Shown here: positions 7,607-46,952 of the stretch, in pieces
Layout: every line of letters begins with the position of its first letter
How positions within the stretch are numbered: position 1 is the stretch's first letter
Source: a virus
Taxonomy: Duplodnaviria; Heunggongvirae; Uroviricota; Caudoviricetes
Direction: 5' to 3' (one strand)
Virus record (IMG/VR): IMGVR_UViG_2913177423_000001
Span: 1-64,000 of that record
DNA length: 64,000 nucleotides
The notes under the pieces: model-generated
Told to the model about the DNA's origin: nothing
The model's input: the letters and a program-made list of their open reading frames with translations, nothing else
Databases searched by the model: none
Program-made: the position numbers and the translations under genes

Positions 7607-8605
7607 ATGCAATCACTGAACACTGTTACGGATCGCTTCTCCCTGGTAGAGAAAATCCGCAAACACACACCGCAGAACAATCGAAATTACGTTATTCAGT
7701 CGGTGCGAGACACATTCAACTCCCCAGAAACAAAAGAGCGTATCGCACTTGGTGAGATGTATGGCTATTACGGACATGGTCGCCGGGCGATGCACTATAA
7801 CAAAACGAAAAGCCTGAACCTGCCGGAAGTCTCTGTTGTGATGGTTGATGGGAAACCTGTTGTATTGGAGAACGTGCCATCAAACAGGACTATCGACATT
7901 TCGATTGACGACAACGGCATTGTTACCCATACGCAGGAAATACTGGATACAGACACCGGGCGTATTGTACAGGGAATGATTAATTCTGGTGCGGGTGGTT
8001 GGTCGTGGGCTACATCTGGCCCAGATTCATCTGTATCTCTGGTAAAGTCTTTTCACGGCTTTGATTACGTAACTGTGCCTAACTATATCAGTCTGGACAA
8101 GAAAAGCCTGATGCTGGAATCAGCAGAAGAGCGCGACGCGGCTATTCATGCGGCACTTATCGAACAAGGTTTTACCGATAACGCGGCTACGGATCTTGTT
8201 CACCACTTTTCAGCAATGAAGAATCAGCAGGCTATTTTCGAGTCAGCACAGCGTGAAGCCCTTGAGTCAGAATTGATGCTCCTTGAAGTGGAAAATATGC
8301 AACTTCGCGACAAATTACGCAACCAGGCCGAAATGATGGAAAGCCAAGGCGAAGATGCGAAGAAATGCCGTAGGATTTTGCGTGATGCTATCCAGGAAAT
8401 GCCTGTTTTTATCAGCGCAGAACAGCGCCGGGCGCTCTGCCGTATGCAGTCTGAAGATGATGCTCGCATAGTGGCTGCGATGCTTGAATCTCTGGGGGCA
8501 AATGCGACTTATGGCTTGCCGATATCAGGCAAGAAAGAGCCGGAGTTATCGCCGAAGGAGAGCAAAAATACTACCCCATTACTCTTCGTTTCGCGACGGG
8601 CATAA
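7607..8605 (+). CDS. hypothetical 332-aa protein with C-terminal coiled coil
   Basis: ORF 13 bp downstream of preceding gene; last gene of the block before a terminator. Confidence 0.5.
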   Translation: MQSLNTVTDRFSLVEKIRKHTPQNNRNYVIQSVRDTFNSPETKERIALGEMYGYYGHGRRAMHYNKTKSLNLPEVSVVMVDGKPVVLENVPSNRTIDISIDDNGIVTHTQEILDTDTGRIVQGMINSGAGGWSWATSGPDSSVSLVKSFHGFDYVTVPNYISLDKKSLMLESAEERDAAIHAALIEQGFTDNAATDLVHHFSAMKNQQAIFESAQREALESELMLLEVENMQLRDKLRNQAEMMESQGEDAKKCRRILRDAIQEMPVFISAEQRRALCRMQSEDDARIVAAMLESLGANATYGLPISGKKEPELSPKESKNTTPLLFVSRRA

Positions 8606-9841: not shown

Positions 9842-10183
9842 GCTGTTGCTAAATCGCAATGTATGATCTGCATCATCGACTGAAATCATCCATTGCTGAA
9901 ATTTTTAGTTGATCTTCCTAATGTTCAGGCTTATATTCACGTCGTCGTAGCAAATTCTGCGACCAGGTTTGACAGCCTGAATGTTAGTGCGGACAACCGC
10001 AGATTTCCGATATTGCGGTATTTTTGTGTCCGTAAACCGCGTTACGCCCGAATTATGGTGGGGCGTGATGGGGAGGCTTCGGCCTGCTGGTTTCACTAAC
10101 GCCAGTCTGTCAACCCTGTCACGTCCTGCCACCTGTTTGACAGCGGGTAGCAGGTTGTTAAACCTGTTAGTGAGGCCGTAACT

Positions 10184-21345: not shown

Positions 21346-22566
21346 ATGGGAACTGCAATGAGTCAACAAACTGATACTTCTAATCTGGAAATCATCTCAG
21401 CCGCGATTGAAACGCTGCGGACACAGATCGCCCTTATTCAAAAGCGGAATCCGGGGGATGACCTGTCTAGGCGACTACATGAGAGCGTCATTGCCACTAC
21501 TGATAACCTGGTCGCGGAGATCAACCAGCTACTTGAGGAAGGGACGGTTGATTACAACAAGCTGGTGGATCAGTTTGAGGAATATCAGCAAGCTGTTAAT
21601 GATGGCCTGATTCGTTTTTCACAAGTCACAGGCGTATCAGCGACAGTTGAAAGCCTGGGCGATGCAGTTAATCAATTTGCCGCTAATATGCGTAGTGAGA
21701 TCGGCAATCTGGAAGCGCGTCTTGAACAGGCAAATACACTGCGCAAATCTGCTGAAGCCGATTTGAGCCGTTACAAAAAAGACTATCCGCCCAGCCTGTC
21801 AAAACGTCTGGATGTTGCGGAGAAGGATAACCGCGCACTGAAAAGAGAGCGCCGGGAGCTGAAAGAGCGTTTAACAGAGCTGAATCAGCAATGTATTAAG
21901 TATCAAGGTGAAGGCGTCACTCTGCGTAAGAAGTTAGCAGCTGCGCAGAACATTATTGAAACTCTGAAACGAGAGTGCTCACAGCTTGGGCATGATCTGA
22001 ATCGCGCTTGTGGCATGGGGCAAAGACCAGAGACATTTCCGCTTATGTATGATGGGAGGGAAGCTATTGCCTATATCCATGAGTTTCCGCATGGCCTGGT
22101 CGCGGAGACTGGGCAGCGAGGAGAAGCATTACTGACGGCTAATTACCATCAGCAAATCAGAACTAGCCGCCTGCTGACTATGGATGTGATCCCATCTGTA
22201 TGGGGAACGCCGCTTTACTATCGCCTCCCCGGCTTCGAAAAGGACTGGAACAACGACATAGACGAATGTCTGGCAGATAAAATAATGGCGTACCTGGAGA
22301 CTGATTTCCCACGCCTGCATCGCCGGATTATGGACTCTAAGGACGCGCCGATCGATGAATTGAAAATGCGCCCAGAGACGCTGGAGGCAATCAAGCAGAC
22401 GGAGTTTGACACTGTATTCAGTGTGGCCTGCATTCCAAGCTGTTTCCATGAAAGTATCCCGTTCATGCAAGGCGATCGTCGTCAGGAAATCATTGATGCT
22501 TGTCGCGTATGGGCGAACGAATGGGACAAGAAGAATGGGGGAGTAGAAGATCTTTACGGGAAATAA
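21346..22566 (+). CDS. hypothetical coiled-coil protein (406 aa)
   Basis: long ORF with heptad-rich N-terminal half; no catalytic motif recognised. Confidence 0.55.
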   Translation: MGTAMSQQTDTSNLEIISAAIETLRTQIALIQKRNPGDDLSRRLHESVIATTDNLVAEINQLLEEGTVDYNKLVDQFEEYQQAVNDGLIRFSQVTGVSATVESLGDAVNQFAANMRSEIGNLEARLEQANTLRKSAEADLSRYKKDYPPSLSKRLDVAEKDNRALKRERRELKERLTELNQQCIKYQGEGVTLRKKLAAAQNIIETLKRECSQLGHDLNRACGMGQRPETFPLMYDGREAIAYIHEFPHGLVAETGQRGEALLTANYHQQIRTSRLLTMDVIPSVWGTPLYYRLPGFEKDWNNDIDECLADKIMAYLETDFPRLHRRIMDSKDAPIDELKMRPETLEAIKQTEFDTVFSVACIPSCFHESIPFMQGDRRQEIIDACRVWANEWDKKNGGVEDLYGK

Positions 22567-22568
22567 TG

Positions 22569-22585
22569 TGTTAGAAATTTAATTT
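22569..22585 (+). promoter_or_regulatory. C1-like operator motif copy
   Basis: TGTTAGAAATTTAATTT, one mismatch. Confidence 0.5.
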
Positions 22586-22600
22586 CAACATACGAACATG

Positions 22601-22629
22601 TTGATTGTAGGTGTAACATAACATAGAAT
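22601..22629 (+). promoter_or_regulatory. sigma70-like promoter
   Basis: TTGATT, 17-nt spacer, TAGAAT; downstream of operator copy and heading a non-coding region. Confidence 0.4.
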
Positions 22630-22724
22630 TTTCCTTGCTGGTGGAGCGTTGCCACATTTCGCTTGCTGGGCTTGATAGTCACTTATTGGTTGTTGTTCGC
22701 CCACCAGCAAATAACAAATTAAAG

Positions 22725-22741
22725 TGTTAGAAAATTACAGG
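22725..22741 (+). promoter_or_regulatory. C1-like operator motif copy
   Basis: TGTTAGAAAATTACAGG matches first 14 positions. Confidence 0.4.
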
Positions 22742-23326
22742 TATACAGGGACTCGCTTTGGCACCGAGCAAGCCAAAGTTCGGCAGGTTTAGTGCGTAAA
22801 GTGGTTTCAGAGAGAGCACTTTACGGAGTAAACGACAAGACATGTTGAGCCACGGAAGGTCTTTTTAAGATGTTCATTGATGATGGTCCGGAAGAGAGTA
22901 ACGGGACTCACCGCATCGAATCATCATCAATGCACATCCTCAACATTAAGGAGGCGCAGGGTTGGTTTTGTGCTCGCTTTTTTACTGACTCTGAGTCTCC
23001 TTAATGTTGCGGTAATGCACCTATGCGGATGCGGCCTTGCATTGTGTCTTGAAAGAATGGGGTAAGGCCGGGGATATCCCCAGGGGGAGGCACCCCCGCC
23101 GCAACGAACAGCCATAGACGGCAGTCGAGTGATGAAAACGTGAAAAGACTTTAAACCTCGTTACGGCTGGCGTGGCAAACGCGACAACCGGGATAGGACG
23201 GTGACGGGCGGAGAGAGTGCCGCATCAAGAAAGAAGCCGACTTGTGATTACTTTCTGCGGGCCTTTGAAAGTGAATCCAGCTCAGGCAGTCGGCTTCTTT
23301 CTTGTGTGAGATGTAGTAGCGTGTTT

Positions 23327-23352
23327 GCCCATCTTCGGGTGGGCTTTTTTAG
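23327..23352 (+). terminator. intrinsic terminator
   Basis: GCCCA-tcttcggg-TGGGC hairpin followed by TTTTTT. Confidence 0.6.
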
Positions 23353-23533
23353 GGTTTTCGTCATTGTTAGCGACTTTGCGGCTGTTTATAAACTGACCAT
23401 TAAAGTAAATGCAAACGATGATCTGATGATGGTAGCGGCCTAATAAGCCTGACGCCACGGGGTATGAGTCGTCCCCCGTCAAAAAATCGACCACAGAGTG
23501 TCCCCGTCTGTGTATTAGGGAACGGGGAGGCAT

Positions 23534-23610
23534 AACAGGCAAGGGCGCTGGTGTGATTAACCAGATGAATGAGAAGGGTCAGGTCTTTCTGGTCAGCGCC
23601 CTTACCTGTT
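23534..23610 (+). repeat. structured hairpin element of the tRNA island (copy 1)
   Basis: 17-bp arms AACAGGCAAGGGCGCTG and CAGCGCCCTTACCTGTT around a 43-nt loop; shares the ACAGG-AAGGGC motif with the other copies. Confidence 0.45.
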
Positions 23611-23811
23611 ACGTCCCTCCCGCGTAACAGCCATTGCTTGATGGTATAGGGGAAAGTTTGTTGGTTACGGGTATATCCCGTCATGCTGAAGGCGCTAATC
23701 ACGCTGGAAGCCAGGGTTATGCATCCCCTGTTACCGAATTGCAGCCAGGGCGCGTTGCGCCGAAAAGCATACGGAGGTGGAAGCCCTCGCCGGAGACGTA
23801 CCCGGCACAAT

Positions 23812-23888
23812 GGTGGTGTAGCTCAGTAGGATAGAGCAGCAGCCTTCTAAGCTGTCGGTCGGTGGTTCGAATCCACTCACCATCGCCA
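23812..23888 (+). tRNA. tRNA-Arg (anticodon UCU)
   Basis: cloverleaf readable by eye: acceptor GGTGGTG/CACCATC, D-arm GCTC-AGTAGGATA-GAGC, anticodon loop CTTCTAA, T-loop TTCGAAT, encoded CCA. Confidence 0.8.
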
Positions 23889-23892
23889 AATT

Positions 23893-23968
23893 GCCGATTT
23901 AGCTCAGTTGGTAGAGCAGTCGCTTTGTAAGCGAATGGTCAGCGGTTCGATCCCGTTAATCGGCACCA
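23893..23968 (+). tRNA. tRNA-Thr (anticodon UGU)
   Basis: acceptor GCCGATT/AATCGGC, D-arm GCTC-AGTTGGTA-GAGC, anticodon loop TTTGTAA, T-loop TTCGATC, encoded CCA. Confidence 0.8.
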
Positions 23969-23970
23969 AC

Positions 23971-24036
23971 ACAACAGGTAAGGGCATTCTCCCTTATGGG
24001 GCTTGGCTTAAATGCATCGAGTGCTCTTACCGTTGT
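23971..24036 (+). repeat. structured hairpin element of the tRNA island (copy 2)
   Basis: arms ACAACAGGTAAGGGCA and TGCTCTTACCGTTGT directly after tRNA-Thr. Confidence 0.45.
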
Positions 24037-24182
24037 GATGAAGTGCAGCTCTTTGAAGCAACCAGAAGATAAGCATCTGGCTTCACAACATAAACCGCAG
24101 GAACGACCAATAAACGGTAGTCCGTATGGCGAACACCCCGTTGAGGAAGAGGCCTGGCCGGAACCGTAACCGGCACTACAAC

Positions 24183-24260
24183 GTTGAGAGCATTGGCGTA
24201 ACGGGGTCATATCCCAATCTATGAATAAATGTTGCGTTGCAGCGTGACAACCAGTGTTTT
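24183..24260 (+). repeat. degenerate copy of tRNA-island element with T-arm-like minihelix
   Basis: GGGGTCATATCCCAATCTA and TTGTGGTGAATGC shared with the copy at 24854. Confidence 0.35.
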
Positions 24261-24386
24261 CAACATTGTGGTGAATGCACAGGCTGATGTGCCGCAACTA
24301 CAGTAGTGCGCGCTTTGCGGGGCTTGCTACAACCCTGTGTCGGAGTTCAGCGCCGACCATCACAATTTATTTAGAAACTGTCATCC

Positions 24387-24800
24387 ATGAGCGCGAGAAC
24401 AGTAATTATGCAGAAAGAGCAGTTTGTTATTTCTCTAGTGGTTAGCACCAGTTATCAGGTCGATAAAGTTTCGAAAGAAAGCGTACCTGAAATTGATGTT
24501 GTCGATGTGTTCGGCAATGAACTCAAAATACCACTTCGTGAATTTAATGAAATAGCAGCTCCGTTGGGCAAAATTGAAGGCCTGGAAGAATACCACAAGC
24601 GGATGATTATCGAGCGCGCCCAACTATGCCAGCGCATAAATAAGCTGGTTAGATTTATCGGAACAGATAACTTTCTCGCCATCGGCTTGGACAGTCAGTT
24701 GGAATTACAAAATCAGCTCGAAAGCATGATTGAGTATCGAAAAGCTCTTGATTCGCGGTTGATTAAATTAACCGAATATGACCCATCAGTAAGCGGTTAA
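24387..24800 (+). CDS. hypothetical protein (137 aa)
   Basis: ATG at 24387; AT-rich ORF embedded in the tRNA island. Confidence 0.45.
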   Translation: MSARTVIMQKEQFVISLVVSTSYQVDKVSKESVPEIDVVDVFGNELKIPLREFNEIAAPLGKIEGLEEYHKRMIIERAQLCQRINKLVRFIGTDNFLAIGLDSQLELQNQLESMIEYRKALDSRLIKLTEYDPSVSG

Positions 24801-24853
24801 TTATAAATTTGGGGCGGATGGTTAGTCCGCCGTTAACTCCATGAAACGGAGTA

Positions 24854-24932
24854 CGCAACAGGTAAGAGCATTCTCCTGTAACGGGTTCATATCCCAATCT
24901 ACAGGTCCACCAAGAATGCTCTTTCCGTTGCG
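24854..24932 (+). repeat. structured hairpin element of the tRNA island (copy 3)
   Basis: 20-bp arms CGCAACAGGTAAGAGCATTCT and AGAATGCTCTTTCCGTTGCG; loop carries GGGTTCATATCCC. Confidence 0.45.
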
Positions 24933-24979
24933 GTGAATGCGGCTAAGCGCACGCGGAACAGTTAAAACAATCTTCCTTA

Positions 24980-25303
24980 ATGTTTAAGTCAAACATCCCG
25001 GCGTTAATTGTTAACTGGTTAACGTCACCTGGAGGCACCAGGCACCGCAATCTAATAAAGTTTCAAGCAATGGAGTTTTTGTTGTCAGACTACAGATATA
25101 GATGGTTGTGGAAGAATATCCTGTCCATATTCAAGTTTTTTCTTCCGCTATTTGTCTGCTTTGTCATGCTTCCTGAGCTGAAATACGCAATTTCAGACAC
25201 CTTAAGCACTATCGTTACTTTTGTGTTTTATCTTTACTTTGATTACTTATTGAGCACTAAAATCTATGAATTATCCGATGAAATGCAAGGTGGCTGTAAG
25301 TGA
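24980..25303 (+). CDS. small hydrophobic protein (107 aa)
   Basis: ATG at 24980; predicted TM helices; AT-rich. Confidence 0.35.
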   Translation: MFKSNIPALIVNWLTSPGGTRHRNLIKFQAMEFLLSDYRYRWLWKNILSIFKFFLPLFVCFVMLPELKYAISDTLSTIVTFVFYLYFDYLLSTKIYELSDEMQGGCK

Positions 25304-25440
25304 TGAATTTTTGGGCGTTTGCCGATAAGAACCCTGGTTGGACATTTTTATTTCTGCTGGTGGTTGCATATGGGGTCGAGCAAGCGGCAAAAGCCTTACG
25401 CGGTTCTGGCAAAAAGCGTAAGCGGAATTGACAGTAATCT

Positions 25441-25516
25441 GGCCCCTTAGCTCAGTGGTTAGAGCTGGCGACTCATAATCGCACGGCCATCGGTTCAAAT
25501 CCGGTAGGGGCCACCA
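25441..25516 (+). tRNA. tRNA with CAU anticodon, probably tRNA-Ile2 (lysidine) rather than Met
   Basis: acceptor GGCCCCT/AGGGGCC, D-arm GCTC-AGTGGTTA-GAGC, anticodon loop CTCATAA, T-loop TTCAAAT, CCA; 5-prime half resembles enterobacterial ileX as recalled. Confidence 0.75.
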
Positions 25517-25702
25517 TATTTGGTTGTAACACGGCGTCTGGCACATGCGTCGTTAGCGGTCTGGTGACGTTAAAGGGATTCCCTCCCTCGCTTAGGCAAA
25601 CAAATCAGGTAGCCGGAATGTGCAAGCCACCGTTTAGTTCTTTCTCGGATAAAGGGGCTCACCACCCTGGCGACGCGGTGTGACAGCCGGAAGAGCACGG
25701 CG

Positions 25703-25750
25703 CACAACAGGAAAAGGCGTTTAATTAGCGTGAGCGCCGTTTCCGTTGTG
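25703..25750 (+). repeat. structured hairpin element of the tRNA island (copy 4)
   Basis: arms CACAACAGGAAAAGGCG and CGCCGTTTCCGTTGTG. Confidence 0.4.
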
Positions 25751-25972
25751 GTAATTGCGGCTATGCGCTCGTGACGAAGCCATTTTCATTCATTGCGGTT
25801 CTGATAAGTGTCGTCGCCGGGCGTGGCTGACCTGGCAGGTGGAGGCACCACCGCCACAACTCCTTTCAATTCATCATATAGCCGCTCAGGCTGTAACCCT
25901 TAATTAATACGAAGTTTCGACATCTCTATCGGTTTAACCGAGGGATGGTCGCGCGTGTAAAAAGGAGACGTT

Positions 25973-26548
25973 ATGTTAACGGCGAACGATAACGCGTATG
26001 CAGAAGCAGATCTCATATTGAGTGACTTCATCGGTCAGCGGGAACGCTGGACACAAAAGCGAGAGGAACTTTATGCCTCGTTAGTTCGCAAAGGTGTCAA
26101 CATTGAAACCGCTCAAAGCGGCGATATGACGGTAGTCAGTGTTGGATTACATGGTGTGAGCGTGTCCGCAGCCAATCATGAGCCATACGTAGCGTTATCC
26201 GAGTCGATGGCAAGGCTAATTAAGTTTCTGAAGCAAACAGAAGCCAATAATGTTTTCATCGCCAAAAAGAACATCAATTTTTCTGCCGCCGTGTTCTGGA
26301 TGATGAAGGGGCTTGACGCCCGCCGGGCATCATGGCCTAAAGGGAGCTATATGTCGATGTTCCGTGGCAGTATTGGCAGTAAAGAAAAGCTCGTCGAATT
26401 CCTGCCGGAAGAAGCATTCGATATTGTGGAAGGGTGCGATGTGATGGTTATGCCTCGCCTGGTAATGATGAATGGAGATTTACAGGCACAGACAGACTGG
26501 TTCGCCACTGGCGTGGATATTATCGCGACTGACTGGGAGGCATTCTGA
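25973..26548 (+). CDS. protein with C-terminal DUF2829-like (Tad2-like) domain
   Basis: ATG with AAGGAG upstream; C-terminal AAVFWMMKGLDARRASWPKG and DWFATGVDIIATDW fit the DUF2829 pattern. Confidence 0.45.
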   Translation: MLTANDNAYAEADLILSDFIGQRERWTQKREELYASLVRKGVNIETAQSGDMTVVSVGLHGVSVSAANHEPYVALSESMARLIKFLKQTEANNVFIAKKNINFSAAVFWMMKGLDARRASWPKGSYMSMFRGSIGSKEKLVEFLPEEAFDIVEGCDVMVMPRLVMMNGDLQAQTDWFATGVDIIATDWEAF

Positions 26549-26940
26549 TGTACGAGACTACAAAATTAAGCATTCATGAAGCCACCAATATGGAGTGGAA
26601 TATCGTCACCTGTAAGATTGTATCGTGTAATGCTGCGCGTACTGATGCAGGCCATAAGAGCACGATAACAGGCTACATGGTAATGGCTTATAGGGGATTG
26701 AGAGTTCGCTTTATCTGGAAAGCTCGGCAATTGACACCATTCAGAGAGCCGTCAATGCCATTAGAGGTAGAACAGGATTATTTAAGCCTGCCGGAAATAG
26801 ACGGTGCAACGCTGGTGGATTCTGATGGTCGTAAGGCTGATTTTGAAGTCAGCTTAAAGGTGGCGCAGGCCGTAATTAATAACTCACGTGGTAAGTGGAT
26901 CGCTAAGGTAAAACACGTCGTTCGCTTATCTCGCTGGTAA
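26548..26940 (+). CDS. hypothetical protein (130 aa)
   Basis: ATGA-coupled to the upstream gene. Confidence 0.5.
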   Translation: MYETTKLSIHEATNMEWNIVTCKIVSCNAARTDAGHKSTITGYMVMAYRGLRVRFIWKARQLTPFREPSMPLEVEQDYLSLPEIDGATLVDSDGRKADFEVSLKVAQAVINNSRGKWIAKVKHVVRLSRW

Positions 26941-26970
26941 TGTTAGATAAATGGAATTAATTTTCTAATA
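26941..26970. promoter_or_regulatory. overlapping inverted pair of C1-like operator motifs
   Basis: TGTTAGATAAATGGAAT on plus strand overlapping GAATTAATTTTCTAATA on minus strand; upstream of gene 27049 and the terminase genes. Confidence 0.5.
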
Positions 26971-27048
26971 TAGCTAACTTTTTGCCAGTCTATACAGAAA
27001 TAACATTCTCATTATCATCCCCTCGGTCATTTCCTGCCTGGGGGATTA

Positions 27049-27441
27049 ATGGAGCATATCAGCAGCGCAGAAATTGCGGATATCATGATTAGGGCTGACT
27101 GCTATCTGACAGTCACCGAAATCACCACTCTCGCTAAAGAAAAATATCCTCACCTTCATGTTTCACGCGTAAGTGTAACCAACATCATTCGGCATTTTGT
27201 GCGGTCAAGCCGAGCTATTTGTGAGCTTGATGATCGTGTTTACCCACGGAAATACTGGTTGCATGGCCTGAACGGATATCAGTTCAAGGTGCGCGGGCGT
27301 ACCCCTGAATACGGCAGTTTGCTGGTTAAAAACTGTAGCAGGAAGTCTGCCGAACTGGCGCGACAAGAGCAGCGCGAGCTGGTGGACATGGCTAATAAGC
27401 TGTGGAATGCCGCAGTTAAAAAGCGTGGTGTTGCTTTATGA
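27049..27441 (+). CDS. hypothetical protein, late-promoter-activator (Lpa) candidate by position only
   Basis: 130-aa ORF directly upstream of small terminase gene and downstream of an operator pair. Confidence 0.35.
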   Translation: MEHISSAEIADIMIRADCYLTVTEITTLAKEKYPHLHVSRVSVTNIIRHFVRSSRAICELDDRVYPRKYWLHGLNGYQFKVRGRTPEYGSLLVKNCSRKSAELARQEQRELVDMANKLWNAAVKKRGVAL

Positions 27442-28802
27442 GCCTGGTTAATTGGGAAGAGCACCGCGCCAAATTTATAGCGTTGCGTGAAGAAAAAGGG
27501 ATCACCGTAAAGGAATACTGCGAGCAACACGACCTTAGCTTCAATACCGCCAGAAAGCATCTCAATATGAAAAAAAATGAGGTGCGGTCGCAGGTGAAGA
27601 CTACAAAAAAAAGCACCAAATCACCTGAAAAAAAACGGGCAGGAAGAGCAAAAAAAAGGCCAGAAGAGGGTACAGAAACAACAAAATTTACAGAAACTGA
27701 CAATTCACAGAGCGGAAGTTCTTTCCGGAGCATGCCGAGAAAGAAAACTTCGGATCATAAAAATAACGACAATAATAACAATGAGATAAAAGAATCTGTC
27801 AGGAGATCATTGCGCGAAAAAATGGCGAAAATGATCCCCGCCGAAGATAAATGCGCCTCAAAAACCGAGGGATCTTCAGCAATGATCCCTGGCGGTGCTG
27901 TGCAGCGTGCCACGTTGCCCACTACGAGTGTGGCTCGCGACATGATGAAGAACGGCGCAGAAGAGCACCTGCGGTTAGCAATTCAAATGGCGCAAGAACG
28001 CGCACTTCAGTACCAAAGCATTGTTGATCAGGAGGCCGAACGCCTACAGGCGGAGATAGACGCCCTGGGTGATGAACAGCCAGAAGGAATGCACCCTGGG
28101 CAGCGACTTCTCGGTCTAATCAGTGACGCGGCCTACTACATGAACGATTTTATCAGTAGGTTGGCAGCGATATATCAGTCCGAACAAAAGCTGCGACAGG
28201 GTGATGAAAAACTTCGTCAGGGTGCTCGCCAGCAAGCATTCAGAGAGGCCGAGGCCAGAGAAAAACTCGAATTAGCACGCCTACAGGCCGAACAGCGCGG
28301 CAAAGAGATTGAATATCGAATTGGCGCTGACGCACGCGCAGCCAGAGTTATCGCCGCCGCTATACGTATGCGTGAGCGCGAGGAACTGGACGATATCGGT
28401 GTTGCTGAATACATCGAGCGTCAGGGTGTCAGTGTCCCGGCTATCCTCGCGGCGCGCGCGGCAAAAGCTATCGATCTTCTCGAACCGCCAGTTTCTGACA
28501 TCAATGATGTTGATGATGAACAGCTGGACAAAGAGGCAAGGGAGTATGCATTGCTTCAGGCAAACCATTCTCAATGGCTGGCAGAGCGCCGGGCAGATGT
28601 GGCTACCATTGTTGAAGACCTGGGGTGCGGAGATTACGACAGCAATGGCGAGCGTAAGGCTGGGGAATTCGAGGCCAACGACGAAGAGTTAGATATTGAC
28701 CCTTCGGCAACGGCTGAAATTTACGGTGATTATGATGCATCAGACGTAGGGTATGACGCCGGAGATGATGATATCGCGATAGAACCTCCGGAGGACGATT
28801 AA
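27438..28802 (+). CDS. terminase small subunit, PacA-like
   Basis: 454-aa ORF ATGA-coupled to the large terminase; N-terminal HTH-like region, basic low-complexity stretch and acidic C-terminus. Confidence 0.6.
   Translation: MSLVNWEEHRAKFIALREEKGITVKEYCEQHDLSFNTARKHLNMKKNEVRSQVKTTKKSTKSPEKKRAGRAKKRPEEGTETTKFTETDNSQSGSSFRSMPRKKTSDHKNNDNNNNEIKESVRRSLREKMAKMIPAEDKCASKTEGSSAMIPGGAVQRATLPTTSVARDMMKNGAEEHLRLAIQMAQERALQYQSIVDQEAERLQAEIDALGDEQPEGMHPGQRLLGLISDAAYYMNDFISRLAAIYQSEQKLRQGDEKLRQGARQQAFREAEAREKLELARLQAEQRGKEIEYRIGADARAARVIAAAIRMREREELDDIGVAEYIERQGVSVPAILAARAAKAIDLLEPPVSDINDVDDEQLDKEAREYALLQANHSQWLAERRADVATIVEDLGCGDYDSNGERKAGEFEANDEELDIDPSATAEIYGDYDASDVGYDAGDDDIAIEPPEDD
27753..27887. other. 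candidate pac site (GATC cluster inside small terminase gene)
   Basis: five GATC sites within 135 bp (27753, 27805, 27833, 27871, 27884), analogous to the methylation-sensitive hexamer repeats of the P1 pac site. Confidence 0.35.
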
Positions 28803-45309: not shown

Positions 45310-45504
45310 CAAAATTTCCCCAGCATCGTGACGCAAAACATAAGCACTGCAAAAAGCTCAATACCAAGCTCAAGTAGCGCCAACGCGCCGAAAAACAGCA
45401 CATAAAACAGGCCGATCTCATTCACAGGTGGCTGGTGGATCGCACTTAAGGCTATAAGCATCATGTCCTCCAAACAGTAAACAGCGACTGATATTAATGT
45501 TTTG

Positions 45505-46171: not shown

Positions 46172-46952
46172 TTTTATGTTGAGTTTGAAATTTACTGATT
46201 GTACATTTTGATTAGATTGGTTCACCGCTCGACGCAACGAGACAAATCCTCAAGGATTTCGTATGATTGCCAATGTCATAGTTATGGCAGCGCAATACAG
46301 GTGGCTAAAAGCCCCCGTTGACTCACGGTGTTCCAACCTGTATTGCGCCGCCACCAGACCGTGGAACAGTCTGTGACGGCTTCGAAAGCAAGGAGTCACT
46401 ATGAACAATTACAAACTTTTCCCATCACTCACCGTCTACTCACGCAATAACCTGCGTTCTTTGCTCCCATCAAAACTGGAGGGAGTATCAAAATGACCGT
46501 TCGCTACCTGAATTATCAAATCCAGAACATCACTGGCGGTTGCTATGACTGGTTTGTCACTCTTGGTAAAGAAGTGATCACCGGGAAGCTGGATGAAGTG
46601 AAAGCTAAAGCAATGGCCTACGCCTGCAAGCAAGCCCAAAAGAAGAAAAGAAAAGCATAAGAAAACACACTGTTGCGCCCTGGCATTATCGTGGGGTATA
46701 TTTCTACGGCACCTTAGAAAAACGGGTGCCGGGATTGGTCTCCCGGTAATGTCAAAGGCGACACATAGACGCCGCAAGCGTCTTTTTTGTTGTCGGCGCA
46801 CTCGCACACCTATCAATGGTGGGCTGTGTGGTGGCTTCCTCGGAAGCGCCGGTTCCCTTTGACGCCGGTAAGACCAACTCCACACAGTCCACCGCCAGTA
46901 AGATTGGTCTCTTCGGCGGTGGTATCGTTCACTGTCAAAGGAGGCTGCCAAT

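What the first reader, a model, noticed from the sequence alone, without database searches (positions are those of the whole stretch)
22569..23352. Operator-flanked non-coding transcription unit, candidate regulatory RNA
Between two operator copies lies a near-consensus promoter (TTGATT-17-TAGAAT, 22601-22629) reading into about 700 bp without a convincing ORF, containing a 10-bp stem TTGCTGGTGG/CCACCAGCAA (22635-22710), GC-rich hairpins (23040-23100), a long inverted repeat (23228-23305) and ending at an intrinsic terminator (23327-23352). The layout is reminiscent of the P1 immI region, where an operator-controlled promoter drives a processed antisense RNA (c4).
Basis: inference. Interest (0 to 1): 0.55.

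Follow-up and report, generated by a model that had tools for sequence, protein, structure and literature searches.

The report
Repressor-controlled non-coding phage RNA leader
In a D6-like plasmid-prophage, a repressor-controlled promoter drives about 720 nt of conserved, tightly folded non-coding RNA that ends at a terminator lying directly in front of an unannotated tmRNA-like RNA and a tRNA cluster, so the 'regulatory RNA unit' is real but is only the front end of a larger non-coding operon.

Summary
The window is a phage D6-like member of the P1 family. Two copies of the D6-type C1 operator (11 copies in the window, 0.3 expected) flank a promoter whose hexamers are conserved while its 17-nt spacer varies. 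About 720 nt follow with no ORF conserved across lineages. Its stems are conserved, with compensatory changes, and it ends at an intrinsic terminator.

This is not a c4/immI analogue. The real C4 RNAs lie at 10051 and 46812. The unit sits where P1 has its C1-controlled Pban/Op72 leader, upstream of tRNA-tci genes. The invariant core (23003-23109) has the architecture of STnc100/PasD prophage sRNAs. Four clearer copies lie downstream.

One to two nt after the terminator's U-run begins an unannotated RNA shared with P1, T1-like, N4-like, Ackermannviridae and lambdoid phages. It carries a start-less 10-codon tmRNA-type tag (ANDDLMMVAA here, 19 variants overall), two covarying pseudoknots and no detectable tRNA-like domain. 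Its 5' arm is complementary to host tmRNA nt 66-106.

Verdict: a real, repressor-controlled, multi-module non-coding leader. Its function is inferred. The adjacent tmRNA-like RNA is the more remarkable object.

The parts
22567..22581 (+). Operator O1: a D6-type C1 repressor site (TGTGTTAGAAATTTA), ending 19 bp upstream of the -35 hexamer
   Evidence: Motif enrichment is 11 observed against 0.3 expected. The same motif lies at the D6 counterparts of P1 C1-controlled genes. The site is conserved in relatives.
22601..22629 (+). Sigma-70 promoter TTGATT-17-TAGAAT, the positional equivalent of P1 Pban. The expected transcription start is about 22636.
   Evidence: Found by the promoter scan. Hexamers are conserved and the spacer varies in 14 relatives. 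Synteny with P1 P1ban/Op72.
22635..22710 (+). 5' stem-loop closed by the 10-bp helix UUGCUGGUGG/CCACCAGCAA. It may be a degenerate STnc100-like module.
   Evidence: Helix 1 has 10 pairs and 95% of cells paired. The model R1 match is weak: 8.5 bits, E 0.18.
22723..22737 (+). Operator O2: a D6-type C1 site at about +90 of the transcript
   Evidence: Exact motif match. It is conserved in relatives, but the O1-O2 spacing varies: 150, 151, 156 or 163 bp.
22756..22833 (+). Two conserved hairpins, at 22756-22786 and 22787-22833
   Evidence: Helix 4 has 3 of 6 pairs with compensatory changes. Helices 6-7 are conserved.
22869..22938 (+). Long hairpin with the stem CAUUGAUGAUGGU.../...AUCAUCAUCAAUG
   Evidence: Helices 10-11 have 22 pairs and 96-98% of cells paired, with WC to G-U changes only.
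22941..23010 (+). Hairpin with 13-bp perfect arms CAACAUUAAGGAG/CUCCUUAAUGUUG, an extended stem and a variable tip. The inner ~39 bp is inverted in two relatives. The last 4 nt compete with the closing helix of the next module.
   Evidence: Helix 12 has 3 pairs with compensatory changes. The loop is inverted in L015 and L029.
23003..23109 (+). Invariant core: a tRNA-shaped, STnc100/PasD-like module. Its closing helix is GUUGCGGU/GCCGCAAC, it has four internal hairpins, and the last is GGGGG-AGGCA-CCCCC abutting the closing strand.
   Evidence: Near-identical in all lineages, including relatives that are otherwise about 72% identical. RNAalifold helices 13-18. Model R1 gives 12.7 bits, E 0.017. 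Its ends resemble the 24928 module, which scores 42.4 bits on Rfam STnc100.
23109..23223 (+). Dispensable structured sub-module. It is absent from relatives L004/L005, and part of it is shared with Klebsiella phage Kp4865-1.
   Evidence: Alignment gaps. BLAST hit of window 23130-23200 at 80.6% identity.
23226..23304 (+). Long hairpin with a 17-bp perfect stem and an inner stem
   Evidence: Helices 26-27 are 100% paired, with 5 pairs carrying compensatory changes, for example UA7/AU6 and GC6/AU5/CG2.
23327..23350 (+). Intrinsic terminator or attenuator: GCCCAUC-UUCG-GGUGGGC followed by U6. It is shared with P1, where it ends the annotated 'dicF-like region'.
   Evidence: Terminator scan. P1 homology starts at 23323. 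In relatives L006/L010/L004 a ~120-nt P1-type 'dicF-like' cassette sits between the long hairpin and this terminator.
23352..23390 (+). Adjacent, outside the finding: the 5' arm of the tmRNA-like RNA, complementary to E. coli tmRNA nt 66-106. That span covers the PK1 3' strand, the resume codon and the first codons.
   Evidence: RNAduplex gives 32 bp and -39.6 kcal/mol. All 35 distinct arms in the family target tmRNA nt 64-107, at -29 to -41 kcal/mol, against -27 on average for reversed tmRNA.
23411..23446 (+). Adjacent: a tmRNA-type tag reading frame, GCA AAC GAT GAT CTG ATG ATG GTA GCG GCC TAA TAA = ANDDLMMVAA**. It has no start codon, and UA lies at -5/-4.
   Evidence: 149 complete elements (150 found, one cut off at its contig end) all have 10 codons plus TAA, giving 19 tag variants with synonymous codon changes. 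Weak Rfam tmRNA_permuted hit.
23458..23527 (+). Adjacent: two H-type pseudoknots downstream of the tag. The first pairs 23458-62 with 23474-78 and 23468-71 with 23488-91. The second pairs 23494-97 with 23507-10 and 23502-06 with 23523-27.
   Evidence: Covariation in 34 non-P1-type homologues: 95.6% paired, score 0.318 against 0.152 shuffled, 0/500. The P1-type equivalents were read from the alignment.
23525..23811 (+). Adjacent: a long hairpin (23525-23621) and a conserved 3' domain running up to the first tRNA
   Evidence: 87-96% identical between D6-type and P1.
23812..23968 (+). tRNA-Arg(UCU) and tRNA-Thr(UGU), the first genes after the leader
   Evidence: ARAGORN and Rfam.
24029..25864 (+). 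Downstream array of STnc100/PasD-like modules at 24029-24093, 24262-24370, 24924-25055 and 25742-25864
   Evidence: Model R1 gives 18.9, 97.8, 37.5 and 22.6 bits. Rfam STnc100 gives 42.4 bits at 24929-25049.

Best explanation
The region is the repressor-controlled promoter and long non-coding 5' leader of the early 'tRNA operon' of a D6-like P1-family phage-plasmid. It is the lineage-specific counterpart of the P1 Pban/Op72 leader.

In the lysogen, the D6-type C1 repressor bound at O1 (-55 to -70) and O2 (about +90) keeps the promoter at 22601-22629 shut. This step is inferred.

On induction or infection, a + strand RNA starts near 22636 and folds into a chain of conserved hairpin modules. At least one module (23003-23109) has the scaffold of STnc100/PasD prophage sRNAs: a closing helix, a first hairpin, and a hairpin with an AGGCA loop abutting the closing strand.

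Most transcripts are expected to stop at the strong terminator (23327-23350). That would release a ~715-nt RNA, or shorter sRNAs processed from it, whose 3' end (long hairpin, single-stranded linker, terminator with U-tail) looks like a typical trans-acting sRNA.

The fraction that reads through makes the tmRNA-like RNA, the tRNAs, further STnc100-like modules and the tci/lpa genes.

Shown: the sequence features, their conservation, covariation, synteny and the lack of coding potential. Inferred: repression by C1, transcription, termination versus read-through, processing, and any trans-acting role.
For: - Identity and synteny: 91% identity to phage D6. pmgS lies upstream and tRNA/tciA/lpa downstream. 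P1 has Op72ab/P1ban, a 'dicF-like region' and tRNA-Asn/Thr at the same place.
- Operator motif: enriched in the window, and placed in D6 at counterparts of P1's C1-controlled genes.
- Promoter: hexamers conserved, spacer variable.
- Folding: the + strand RNA folds to -280.4 kcal/mol (z -8.1). The minus strand gives -234.6.
- Covariation: 182 pairs, 98.3% of cells paired, 14 pairs with double-sided changes against 7.9+-1.6 in shuffles (0/500) and 0-2 in slid controls.
- Wobble asymmetry: G-U outnumbers A-C by 228 to 15 on the + strand.
- Coding: no ORF is conserved across lineages, and nothing is annotated in 99 RefSeq plasmids.
- Terminator: found by the scan and shared with P1.
- Module family: R1 hits are all on the + strand, including the core at E 0.017. 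A sister module scores 42.4 bits on Rfam STnc100.
- Precedent: STnc100/PasD are Hfq-bound prophage sRNAs with a conserved scaffold and different seeds (bioRxiv 10.64898/2026.05.13.724894).
- No other + strand promoter-like site lies between 22629 and the tRNAs.
Against: - There are no expression data, so the transcription start, the termination efficiency and any processing are all inferred.
- Neither operator overlaps the -35 or -10 hexamer, unlike P1 Op72ab. The O1-O2 spacing is not helically phased across relatives (150-163 bp), so the mode of repression is unclear.
- The invariant core does not reach any Rfam family. STnc100 is not even listed at E<=10, and its R1 score is modest (12.7 bits, with rough E-values).
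- Covariation rests on only about four independent lineages.
- No target complementarity above chance was found inside the window. There is one 15-mer, which is not conserved in relatives. None was found to tmRNA or to the tmRNA-like RNA.
- P1 manages with a much shorter leader, so most of these ~690 nt are dispensable for expressing the operon.
Confidence: 0.6

Rival explanations
1. The region is purely a cis-acting leader or attenuator. The hairpins exist only to set how much RNA polymerase reads through the terminator into the tmRNA-like RNA, tRNAs and tci/lpa genes, for example by alternative pairings or a put-like antitermination RNA. No trans-acting RNA is made.
For: The strong terminator lies inside the only visible transcription unit for the downstream RNAs. 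There is competing pairing of GUUG 23007-23010 with either CAAC 22941-44 or GCAAC 23101-05. In lambdoid phages the related elements sit behind PR'/qut, where antitermination rules.
Against: P1 and several relatives read into the same downstream RNAs with quite different or much shorter sequences before the same terminator. Modules are gained and lost like cassettes. The invariant core resembles free-standing Hfq-bound sRNAs.
Confidence: 0.2
2. The region is a c4/immI-type immunity element, as the first reader suggested by analogy. An operator-controlled promoter would make a processed antisense RNA that controls an antirepressor.
For: It has an operator-associated promoter and structured RNA, and no ORF.
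Against: The C4 and a1/b1 covariance models match at 9931, 10051 and 46812, not here. No icd/ant genes follow, only tRNAs. No significant complementarity to other window sequences was found.
Confidence: 0.03
3. The region is a DNA-level element. The hairpins would act in single-stranded or cruciform DNA, for example as a priming or replication signal, a recombination hotspot or an invertible switch, rather than in RNA.
For: There are many perfect inverted repeats. One hairpin tip is found in both orientations among relatives. Compensatory changes also preserve DNA hairpins.
Against: The + strand-specific G-U wobble excess and the 46 kcal/mol strand difference favour RNA. The region has a promoter-to-terminator layout. 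The inversion is seen in only 2 of about 35 sequences and carries no promoter-sized content, which fits a mutational hairpin-loop flip. All family modules lie on the transcribed strand.
Confidence: 0.05
4. The region is a decayed gene or hides a small protein gene.
For: Several 25-62 aa ORFs exist in this window. Two small minus-strand ORFs are intact in nearly all relatives.
Against: The ORFs are broken by non-triplet indels or stops in other lineages. The two intact ones lie in an invariant block, so there is no codon-pattern evidence, and they are antisense to the promoter. PGAP calls nothing here.
Confidence: 0.05

Closest known systems
P1 Pban / Op72ab promoter-operator and the leader of the ban (tRNA-tci-ban) operon, including the annotated 'dicF-like region'
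   Same: It has the same genomic slot: after a head or DNA-methylase block and before tRNA-Asn/Thr and tciA. It has repressor-operator control. It has a long non-coding leader and the identical terminator hairpin, followed by the same ~460-nt conserved RNA.
   Different: The operators flank the promoter rather than overlapping it. The operator sequence is the D6 type. About 690 nt of different, lineage-specific structured RNA replace the ~160 nt of P1 leader. The P1 'dicF-like' cassette is absent from this window, though present in some D6-like relatives. D6-like phages have no ban gene in this operon.
STnc100 (Rfam RF02076) / PasD prophage-encoded Hfq-associated sRNAs
   Same: The invariant core shares the multi-branch, tRNA-shaped scaffold: a closing helix GUUGYGG/CCRCAAC, a first hairpin after AAU, and a terminal 5-bp hairpin with an AGGCA loop directly abutting the closing strand. 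The interior is variable. It has a phage context next to tRNAs. Sister modules in the same operon reach 42.4 bits on RF02076 (literature).
   Different: The core itself is below every Rfam threshold. It is embedded in a long C1-controlled leader rather than lying behind Q/PR' of a lambdoid prophage. Hfq binding, seed and targets are unknown.
DicF and other sRNAs processed from phage operon transcripts
   Same: A repressor-controlled operon transcript carries an internal hairpin-plus-U-tract 3' end that could release an sRNA, while some polymerases continue. P1 annotators called the homologous terminator region 'dicF-like'.
   Different: There is no Rfam DicF match here or in P1. The window lacks the P1 cassette that earned the name.
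tmRNA (ssrA), for the RNA that starts right after the terminator
   Same: It has a start-less 10-codon tag beginning GCA AAC GAx and ending (A/V)A-stop. UA lies at -5/-4. The stop codon sits in a hairpin loop. H-type pseudoknots lie downstream.
   Different: No tRNA-like domain, G3:U70, canonical T-loop or CCA was found. ARAGORN is negative, and the Rfam tmRNA models score below threshold. It carries a 5' arm complementary to host tmRNA.
P1 c4 antisense RNA (immI)
   Same: Operator-controlled, non-coding, structured RNA.
   Different: It is a different family at a different locus. True C4 copies are at 10051-10136 and 46812-46899.

Membership tests
C4 antisense RNA / immI | Match to the C4 covariance model (RF01695), with a1/b1 target repeats (RF03163) upstream | tested here: not met
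   No hit in 22300-23900 even at E<=10. Hits lie at 9931, 10051 and 46812 instead.
C4 antisense RNA / immI | Located in front of the icd-ant antirepressor genes | tested here: not met
   tRNAs and tci-like genes lie downstream. In D6, icd/ant are elsewhere.
P1-type C1-controlled early promoter (Pban/Op72 equivalent) | Syntenic position upstream of tRNA-Asn/Thr-tciA, with a shared downstream leader | tested here: met
P1-type C1-controlled early promoter (Pban/Op72 equivalent) | Repressor operator of the phage's own type at the promoter | tested here: met
   Two motif copies flank the promoter. The motif is enriched 11 to 0.3 and sits at D6 counterparts of P1 C1-controlled genes. Binding itself was not tested.
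P1-type C1-controlled early promoter (Pban/Op72 equivalent) | Operator overlaps the -35/-10 hexamers (bivalent Op72ab in P1) | tested here: not met
   O1 ends 19 bp upstream of the -35 hexamer. O2 lies at about +90.
STnc100/PasD sRNA family | Reaches the Rfam RF02076 gathering score (47 bits) | tested here: not met
   The leader core is not listed at E<=10. The sister module at 24929-25049 scores 42.4 bits, E 2.7e-7.
STnc100/PasD sRNA family | Scaffold of a closing helix, a first hairpin and a terminal AGGCA-loop hairpin abutting the closing strand | tested here: met
   RNAalifold helices 13-18, compared with the RF02076 consensus line and by end alignments.
STnc100/PasD sRNA family | Significant match to a covariance model of phage modules of this type | tested here: inconclusive
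   R1 gives 12.7 bits, E 0.017 in 6 kb, with a shortened calibration.
STnc100/PasD sRNA family | Hfq-bound, base-pairing sRNA with a defined seed | not testable with these tools
   This needs RIL-seq, CLASH or Northern analysis.
DicF | Match to the Rfam DicF model, or presence of the P1 'dicF-like' cassette | tested here: not met
   No DicF hit in the window or in P1. The cassette is absent here but present in L006/L010/L004.
Intrinsic terminator | GC-rich hairpin followed by a U-run | tested here: met
   A 7-bp stem with a UUCG loop and U6. It is conserved in all relatives and in P1.
tmRNA (adjacent RNA 23352-23811) | Tag ORF without a start codon, resuming at GCA and ending in a hydrophobic-Ala-Ala type C-terminus plus a stop | tested here: met
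   All 149 complete elements have 10 codons plus TAA, with 19 tag variants and synonymous changes. Six chance matches to the search pattern in other phyla lack such a tag.
tmRNA (adjacent RNA 23352-23811) | Pseudoknots flanking the tag | tested here: met
   Two H-type pseudoknots lie downstream, with covariation. A PK1 equivalent upstream was not established.
tmRNA (adjacent RNA 23352-23811) | tRNA-like domain: acceptor stem with G3:U70, T-arm and CCA end | tested here: not met
   ARAGORN finds no tmRNA. No T-arm lies within +-1.5 kb in T1-like and lambdoid examples. The nearby tRNA-shaped modules have U3-A70, atypical loops and no CCA.
tmRNA (adjacent RNA 23352-23811) | Rfam tmRNA family gathering scores | tested here: not met
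   tmRNA_permuted scores 26-33 bits (GA 47) and alpha/beta_tmRNA 16-25 bits.

The most novel reading that the evidence does not exclude
The C1-controlled unit is the regulated front end of a phage system that hijacks host trans-translation.

The RNA beginning 1-2 nt after the terminator's U-run (23352-23811) would be a tmRNA mimic without a tRNA-like domain. Its 5' arm anneals to host tmRNA nt ~64-107, masking the host resume codon and the first codons. It then presents its own resume context and 10-codon tag (ANDDLMMVAA here). Stalled-ribosome products would therefore receive a phage-specified tag.

The same RNA family is present, unannotated, in P1, T1-like, N4-like, Ackermannviridae and lambdoid phages of Enterobacterales. 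The leader in the finding would supply repressor control, an STnc100/PasD-like sRNA and an attenuator that gates production of the mimic.
Probability: 0.35. Interest if true: 0.92.

Novelty: new variant of a known kind. Interest (0 to 1): 0.7.

Why it matters
The leader shows that P1-family phage-plasmids put a cassette-like set of structured RNAs under direct control of the prophage repressor. These RNAs include relatives of the poorly understood STnc100/PasD prophage sRNAs. That gives an inducible, genetically tractable setting in which to learn what these sRNAs do.

Following the unit past its terminator also exposed an unannotated RNA family, found in 265 phage records and 618 plasmids. 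It combines a translationally selected tmRNA-type tag and tmRNA-type pseudoknots with an arm complementary to host tmRNA, and it has no tRNA-like domain.

If this RNA acts on trans-translation, it would be a new way for phages to manipulate ribosome rescue and protein tagging. It would also make the old question of why phages such as P1 and lambdoid hybrids depend on, or interfere with, tmRNA directly testable.

Tried and rejected
1. Rfam at gathering and at E-value thresholds over the region gave no family. There was only noise (miRNA-like hits on the long hairpins) and a weak tmRNA_permuted hit just outside.

2. The c4 analogy is rejected.

3. The DicF idea: P1's 'dicF-like' label is not backed by the Rfam model, and that cassette is missing here.

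4. Coding or pseudogene reading: tracking ORFs through the alignment shows that none is conserved. I did not run Pfam or PHROGs on six-frame translations.

5. Repressor looping between O1 and O2: the spacing is not phase-conserved, so this is left open.

6. Antisense targets inside the window: there is only one 15-mer (23139-53 against 8043-57), and it is interrupted in most relatives, so it is judged to be chance.

7. Complementarity of the leader to host tmRNA or to the tmRNA-like RNA is not above shuffles.

8. Direct sequence homology of the downstream RNA to E. coli ssrA by BLAST is not significant in the sense orientation. The best hit was antisense, which led to the arm observation.

9. 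The search for a tRNA-like domain was negative.

10. The first genome contigs pattern from the invariant core found nothing. The D6-type leader is confined to E. coli, Salmonella and Shigella plasmids.

11. The Lobocka et al. P1 genome paper and the Gilcrease & Casjens D6 paper could not be read. Statements about P1 Op sites beyond the GenBank annotation therefore rest on my own knowledge.

12. A programmed invertible switch at 22941-23010 is judged unlikely. It is seen in 2 of ~35 sequences and the segment is too small for a promoter.
Full report
**What the window is.** The 1.5 kb around the finding is 91% identical to Escherichia phage D6. From 23323 onward it is 87-88% identical to P1, P7, SJ46 and other punaviruses.

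In D6 the flanks are a pmgS-like gene upstream and, downstream, tRNA-Asn/Thr/Ser, tciA/B, two ORFs, lpa and pacA. The stretch between pmgS and the tRNAs carries no annotation.

At the same place P1 carries the bivalent C1 operator Op72ab, promoters P1ban/P2ban, a 'dicF-like region' and tRNA-Asn/Thr, followed by tciABC, tRNA-Ile and ban. By synteny, the finding is therefore the D6-lineage version of the P1 Pban leader.

**Checking the observation.** All listed features are present.

- Operators. The motif is real and specific. AGTGTTAGAAAWTTA with up to 2 mismatches occurs 11 times against 0.30 expected. In the complete D6 genome it lies upstream of c1, lpa, the c4/icd-ant region, hrdC-dmt (as an inverted pair) and ref (with the gene maps). 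That is the set of genes P1 controls through C1 operators. The correspondence for Op99, Op86, Op51 and Op2 rests on my own knowledge of P1. Op68 and Op72 are in the annotation. I therefore accept it as the D6-type C1 operator. Copies lie at 22567-22581 and 22723-22737.
- Promoter. TTGATT-17-TAGAAT at 22601-22629 is one of two promoter-like sites in 2.2 kb, which is no more than chance gives. Across 14 relatives, however, the hexamers are kept while the spacer sequence changes at constant length. That is the signature of a used promoter.
- Operator placement. Unlike P1 Op72ab, neither operator overlaps the hexamers. The O1-O2 distance is 150, 151, 156 or 163 bp in different relatives. How repression works is therefore open: occlusion from upstream, a roadblock at +90, or looping.

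**Non-coding and structured.** I followed 13 candidate ORFs through the alignment. None is intact in all lineages, apart from two 27-30 aa minus-strand ORFs lying entirely within an invariant block. Indels are mostly not multiples of three. RefSeq annotates nothing here in 99 complete E. coli plasmids, and the sequence never occurs on a chromosome.

The predicted transcript 22636-23352 folds to -280.4 kcal/mol, with z -8.1. Its complement reaches only -234.6.

On the 14-sequence alignment, a curated RNAalifold structure of 182 pairs gave these results:

- 98.3% of cells are paired.
- 14 pairs changed on both sides, against 7.9+-1.6 in shuffles (0/500) and 0-2 when partners are slid.

The best-supported stems are the 17-bp hairpin at 23226-23304 (UA7/AU6 and GC6/AU5/CG2), the hairpin at 22941-23010, and the hairpin at 22756-22786.

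G-U pairs outnumber A-C by 228 to 15 on the + strand. This count is partly biased, because the structure was predicted on the + strand. One caveat applies to all of this: the relatives represent only about four independent lineages.

**Mosaic construction.** The leader is built of cassettes.

- Relatives L004/L005 are about 72% identical elsewhere, lack 23112-23227, and still keep 23011-23110 almost invariant.
- L006, L010, L013, L014, L016, L017 and L004/L005 carry the ~120-nt P1-type 'dicF-like' cassette between the long hairpin and the terminator. This window and D6 do not.
- Window 23130-23200 is also found in a Klebsiella phage.
- The terminator (stem 23327-23344, UUCG loop, U-run 23345-23350) is common to all, including P1.

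**What the invariant core is.** RNAalifold folds 23006-23105 as follows:

- a closing helix GUUGCGGU/GCCGCAAC;
- four internal hairpins;
- a last hairpin, GGGGG-AGGCA-CCCCC, directly abutting the closing strand, which gives a tRNA-like outline.

While analysing related phages I found a recurrent domain with the same outline, GUUGUGGUGAAUGCGCAGGCUGAUGCGC...GCCGGAGAUCAGCACCGGCCACCACAAC, with a variable interior. A covariance model built from 15 such domains (R1) was run over 21500-27500 with filters off. It found only + strand members:

| Window coordinates | Bits | E-value | Note |
|---|---|---|---|
| 24262-24370 | 97.8 | - | the window's own training sequence |
| 24924-25055 | 37.5 | 1e-8 | |
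| 25742-25864 | 22.6 | 6e-5 | |
| 24029-24093 | 18.9 | 5e-4 | |
| 23003-23109 | 12.7 | 0.017 | leader core |
| 22632-22714 | 8.5 | 0.18 | leader 5' stem-loop |

Rfam's STnc100 model matches 24929-25049 at 42.4 bits (gathering score 47, E 2.7e-7), with the same GGAGGCACC hairpin and closing strand. The leader core shares 23 of 33 positions at its 5' end with that module, as well as the GGAGGCACC...CCGCAA 3' end.

The core itself is not reported by Rfam even at E<=10. It therefore works like and looks like an STnc100/PasD-type module, but formal membership is not established.

According to a 2026 preprint, STnc100 and PasD are related prophage-encoded, Hfq-associated sRNAs. They have a common fold but different seed regions and lie near Q in lambdoid prophages. 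Their functions are still unknown.

**Most likely mechanism.** The steps below are inferred unless marked as shown.

1. C1 holds the promoter off in the plasmid prophage.
2. On derepression, a + strand RNA starts near 22636 and folds into the module chain.
3. The strong terminator stops most polymerases. This gives a ~715-nt RNA, or processed pieces of it.
4. The 3' end of that RNA (long hairpin, ~20-nt linker, terminator with U-tail) has the form of a trans-acting sRNA. In relatives the cassette just before the same terminator is exchanged, much as seeds are exchanged.
5. Polymerases that read through make the downstream RNAs. No other + strand promoter-like site precedes the tRNAs (shown). 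In P1 the only annotated promoters for the operon also lie upstream of this terminator (shown).

I found no convincing target. There is one non-conserved 15-mer match inside the window. Complementarity to tmRNA or to the neighbouring RNA is no better than shuffles.

**Beyond the coordinates: a tmRNA-like RNA.** The first clue was a weak tmRNA_permuted hit at 23338-23443 (26 bits). It drew attention to GCA AAC GAT GAT CTG ATG ATG GTA GCG GCC TAA TAA (23411-23446), which reads ANDDLMMVAA**. The E. coli tmRNA tag is ANDENYALAA**.

Distribution. The segment 23353-~23545 matches 265 phage records of unrelated types, nowhere annotated as RNA:

- P1 and D6;
- Ackermannviridae, such as Serratia 3M and Klebsiella Magnus;
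- the N4-like phage Bp4;
- the T1-like phage Bas79;
- the lambdoid phage HK633, where it lies ~250 nt behind PR'/qut.

It also matches 618 plasmids.

The tag. Together with the phage, plasmid and viral loci fetched earlier, this gave 150 elements. Every complete one has exactly 10 codons plus TAA. The 19 tag variants fit A-N-[DE]-[DEN]-x-[FYMV]-[LM]-[AMVI]-[AV]-A, apart from a single record that ends in P (ANDDLMMVAP). Codon changes are often synonymous, for example GAA/GAG, GTT/GTA/GTC, CTG/TTG and GCN. There is no start codon. UA lies at -5/-4, as with U85/A86 of tmRNA (my knowledge). The alternative AUG frame gives peptides of inconsistent length.

Negative control. Six chance matches to the same search pattern in other phyla have no such tag. 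Genuine copies in species-representative genomes are all from Enterobacterales, apart from one P1-like contig binned in a Bacillota metagenome assembly, which is probably contamination.

Pseudoknots. Downstream lie two H-type pseudoknots with clear covariation:

- 95.6% of cells are paired, and the covariation score is 0.318 against 0.152 in shuffles (0/500).
- Examples of covarying stems are CAAGG/CCUUG, UGAGG/CCUCA and CGGGG/CCCCG.
- Examples of covarying loop-to-downstream pairs are CCGA/UCGG, CCAG/CUGG and CCAA/UUGG.

Promoter. T1-like phages give the RNA its own consensus promoter, TTGACA-17-TAGATT. Transcription would start just before GGUUUUCG.

No tRNA-like domain. None was found. The neighbouring tRNA-shaped modules have U3-A70, atypical loops and no CCA.

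The arm. The conserved 5' block (23352-23390 here) is complementary to E. coli tmRNA nt 66-106. That span covers the 3' strand of PK1, the linker, the resume codon at nt 90 and the first five codons. The duplex has 32 bp and -39.6 kcal/mol. All 35 distinct versions of the block choose the same target window, at -29 to -41 kcal/mol. For comparison, reversed tmRNA gives about -27 and the element's own downstream sequence -18 to -28. The z-scores are -1.7 to -6.4.

Literature. The tag strings appear in none of about 8 million papers. The tmRNA database papers of 2014 and 2025 list phage tmRNAs only where a tRNA-like domain is present.

Reading. I conclude with high confidence that this is a conserved, translationally constrained tmRNA-like RNA family. 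With much lower confidence, I suggest that it works by docking on host tmRNA.

**Link to the finding.** The link is physical and regulatory. The arm begins 1-2 nt after the terminator's U-run, and the C1-controlled promoter of the finding is the only visible promoter for it in P1/D6-type phages.

**Verdict.**
- The leader is a new lineage-specific variant of a known arrangement, the P1 Pban leader, built from modules related to a known but functionally obscure sRNA family.
- Its own interest is moderate. The interest of the transcription unit as a whole is raised substantially by the adjacent tmRNA-like RNA.

Noticed in passing
window 23352-23811: An unannotated tmRNA-like RNA lies immediately after the terminator. 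It has a start-less 10-codon tag (ANDDLMMVAA), two covarying pseudoknots, no tRNA-like domain, and a 5' arm complementary to host tmRNA nt 66-106. The family occurs in P1/D6, T1-like, N4-like, Ackermannviridae and lambdoid phages (265 phage records, 618 plasmids).
   Followed up: yes
window 24029-24093, 24262-24370, 24924-25055, 25742-25864 (+): An array of tRNA-shaped STnc100/PasD-like modules is interspersed with the tRNAs and small ORFs of the same operon. One reaches 42.4 bits on Rfam STnc100 (gathering score 47). All have conserved ends and variable interiors.
   Followed up: partly
L015 (NZ_CP058619) and L029, equivalent to window 22954-22997: The ~39-nt inner part of the hairpin between the 13-bp inverted repeats CAACATTAAGGAG/CTCCTTAATGTTG is the exact reverse complement of the common D6-type version. 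This is a small hairpin-loop inversion, seen in 2 of about 35 sequences.
   Followed up: partly
relatives L006, L010, L013, L014, L016, L017, L004, L005, between the equivalents of window 23305 and 23323: A ~120-nt P1-type 'dicF-like' cassette is present in some D6-like plasmids and absent from this window. Part of it (L004 query 677-752) also matches unrelated large plasmids and one E. coli chromosome, which suggests a mobile sRNA-like module.
   Followed up: no
window 10051-10136 and 46812-46899; also 9931-9983 and 46709-46788: There are two separate C4 antisense RNA genes. One has its a1/b1 target element, and the other lies just after an isrK-like RNA. The phage therefore appears to carry two immI-type modules. 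D6 also annotates two icd/ant pairs.
   Followed up: no
window 23812-23888: The first tRNA of the cluster is tRNA-Arg(UCU) here. D6 and P1 have tRNA-Asn at this position. Relatives show Arg, Asn, Tyr and Ser in varying combinations, so the tRNA cassette is exchanged between otherwise similar plasmids.
   Followed up: no
window 8620, 9823, 20274, 21317, 31567, 32791, 45503, 46159, 57515: Further copies of the D6-type C1 operator motif occur at these positions. Those at 45503 and 57515 have an inverted partner a few bp away, making them bivalent operators.
   Followed up: partly
window 23139-23153 against 8043-8057: A perfect 15-nt complementarity exists between the leader and the + strand inside the pro-like gene. 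It is interrupted in most relatives and is probably chance.
   Followed up: partly
window 23130-23200: This leader sub-module is 80.6% identical to a stretch of Klebsiella phage Kp4865-1 (40.9 kb, unannotated record). It is absent from relatives L004/L005.
   Followed up: no
window 23968-24035: A hairpin ACAACAGGUAAGGGCAUU[variable tip]AGUGCUCUUACCGUUGUG lies after tRNA-Thr. It is the same 'variable-tip' hairpin type that follows the pseudoknots of the tmRNA-like RNA in other phages and precedes STnc100-like modules.
   Followed up: no
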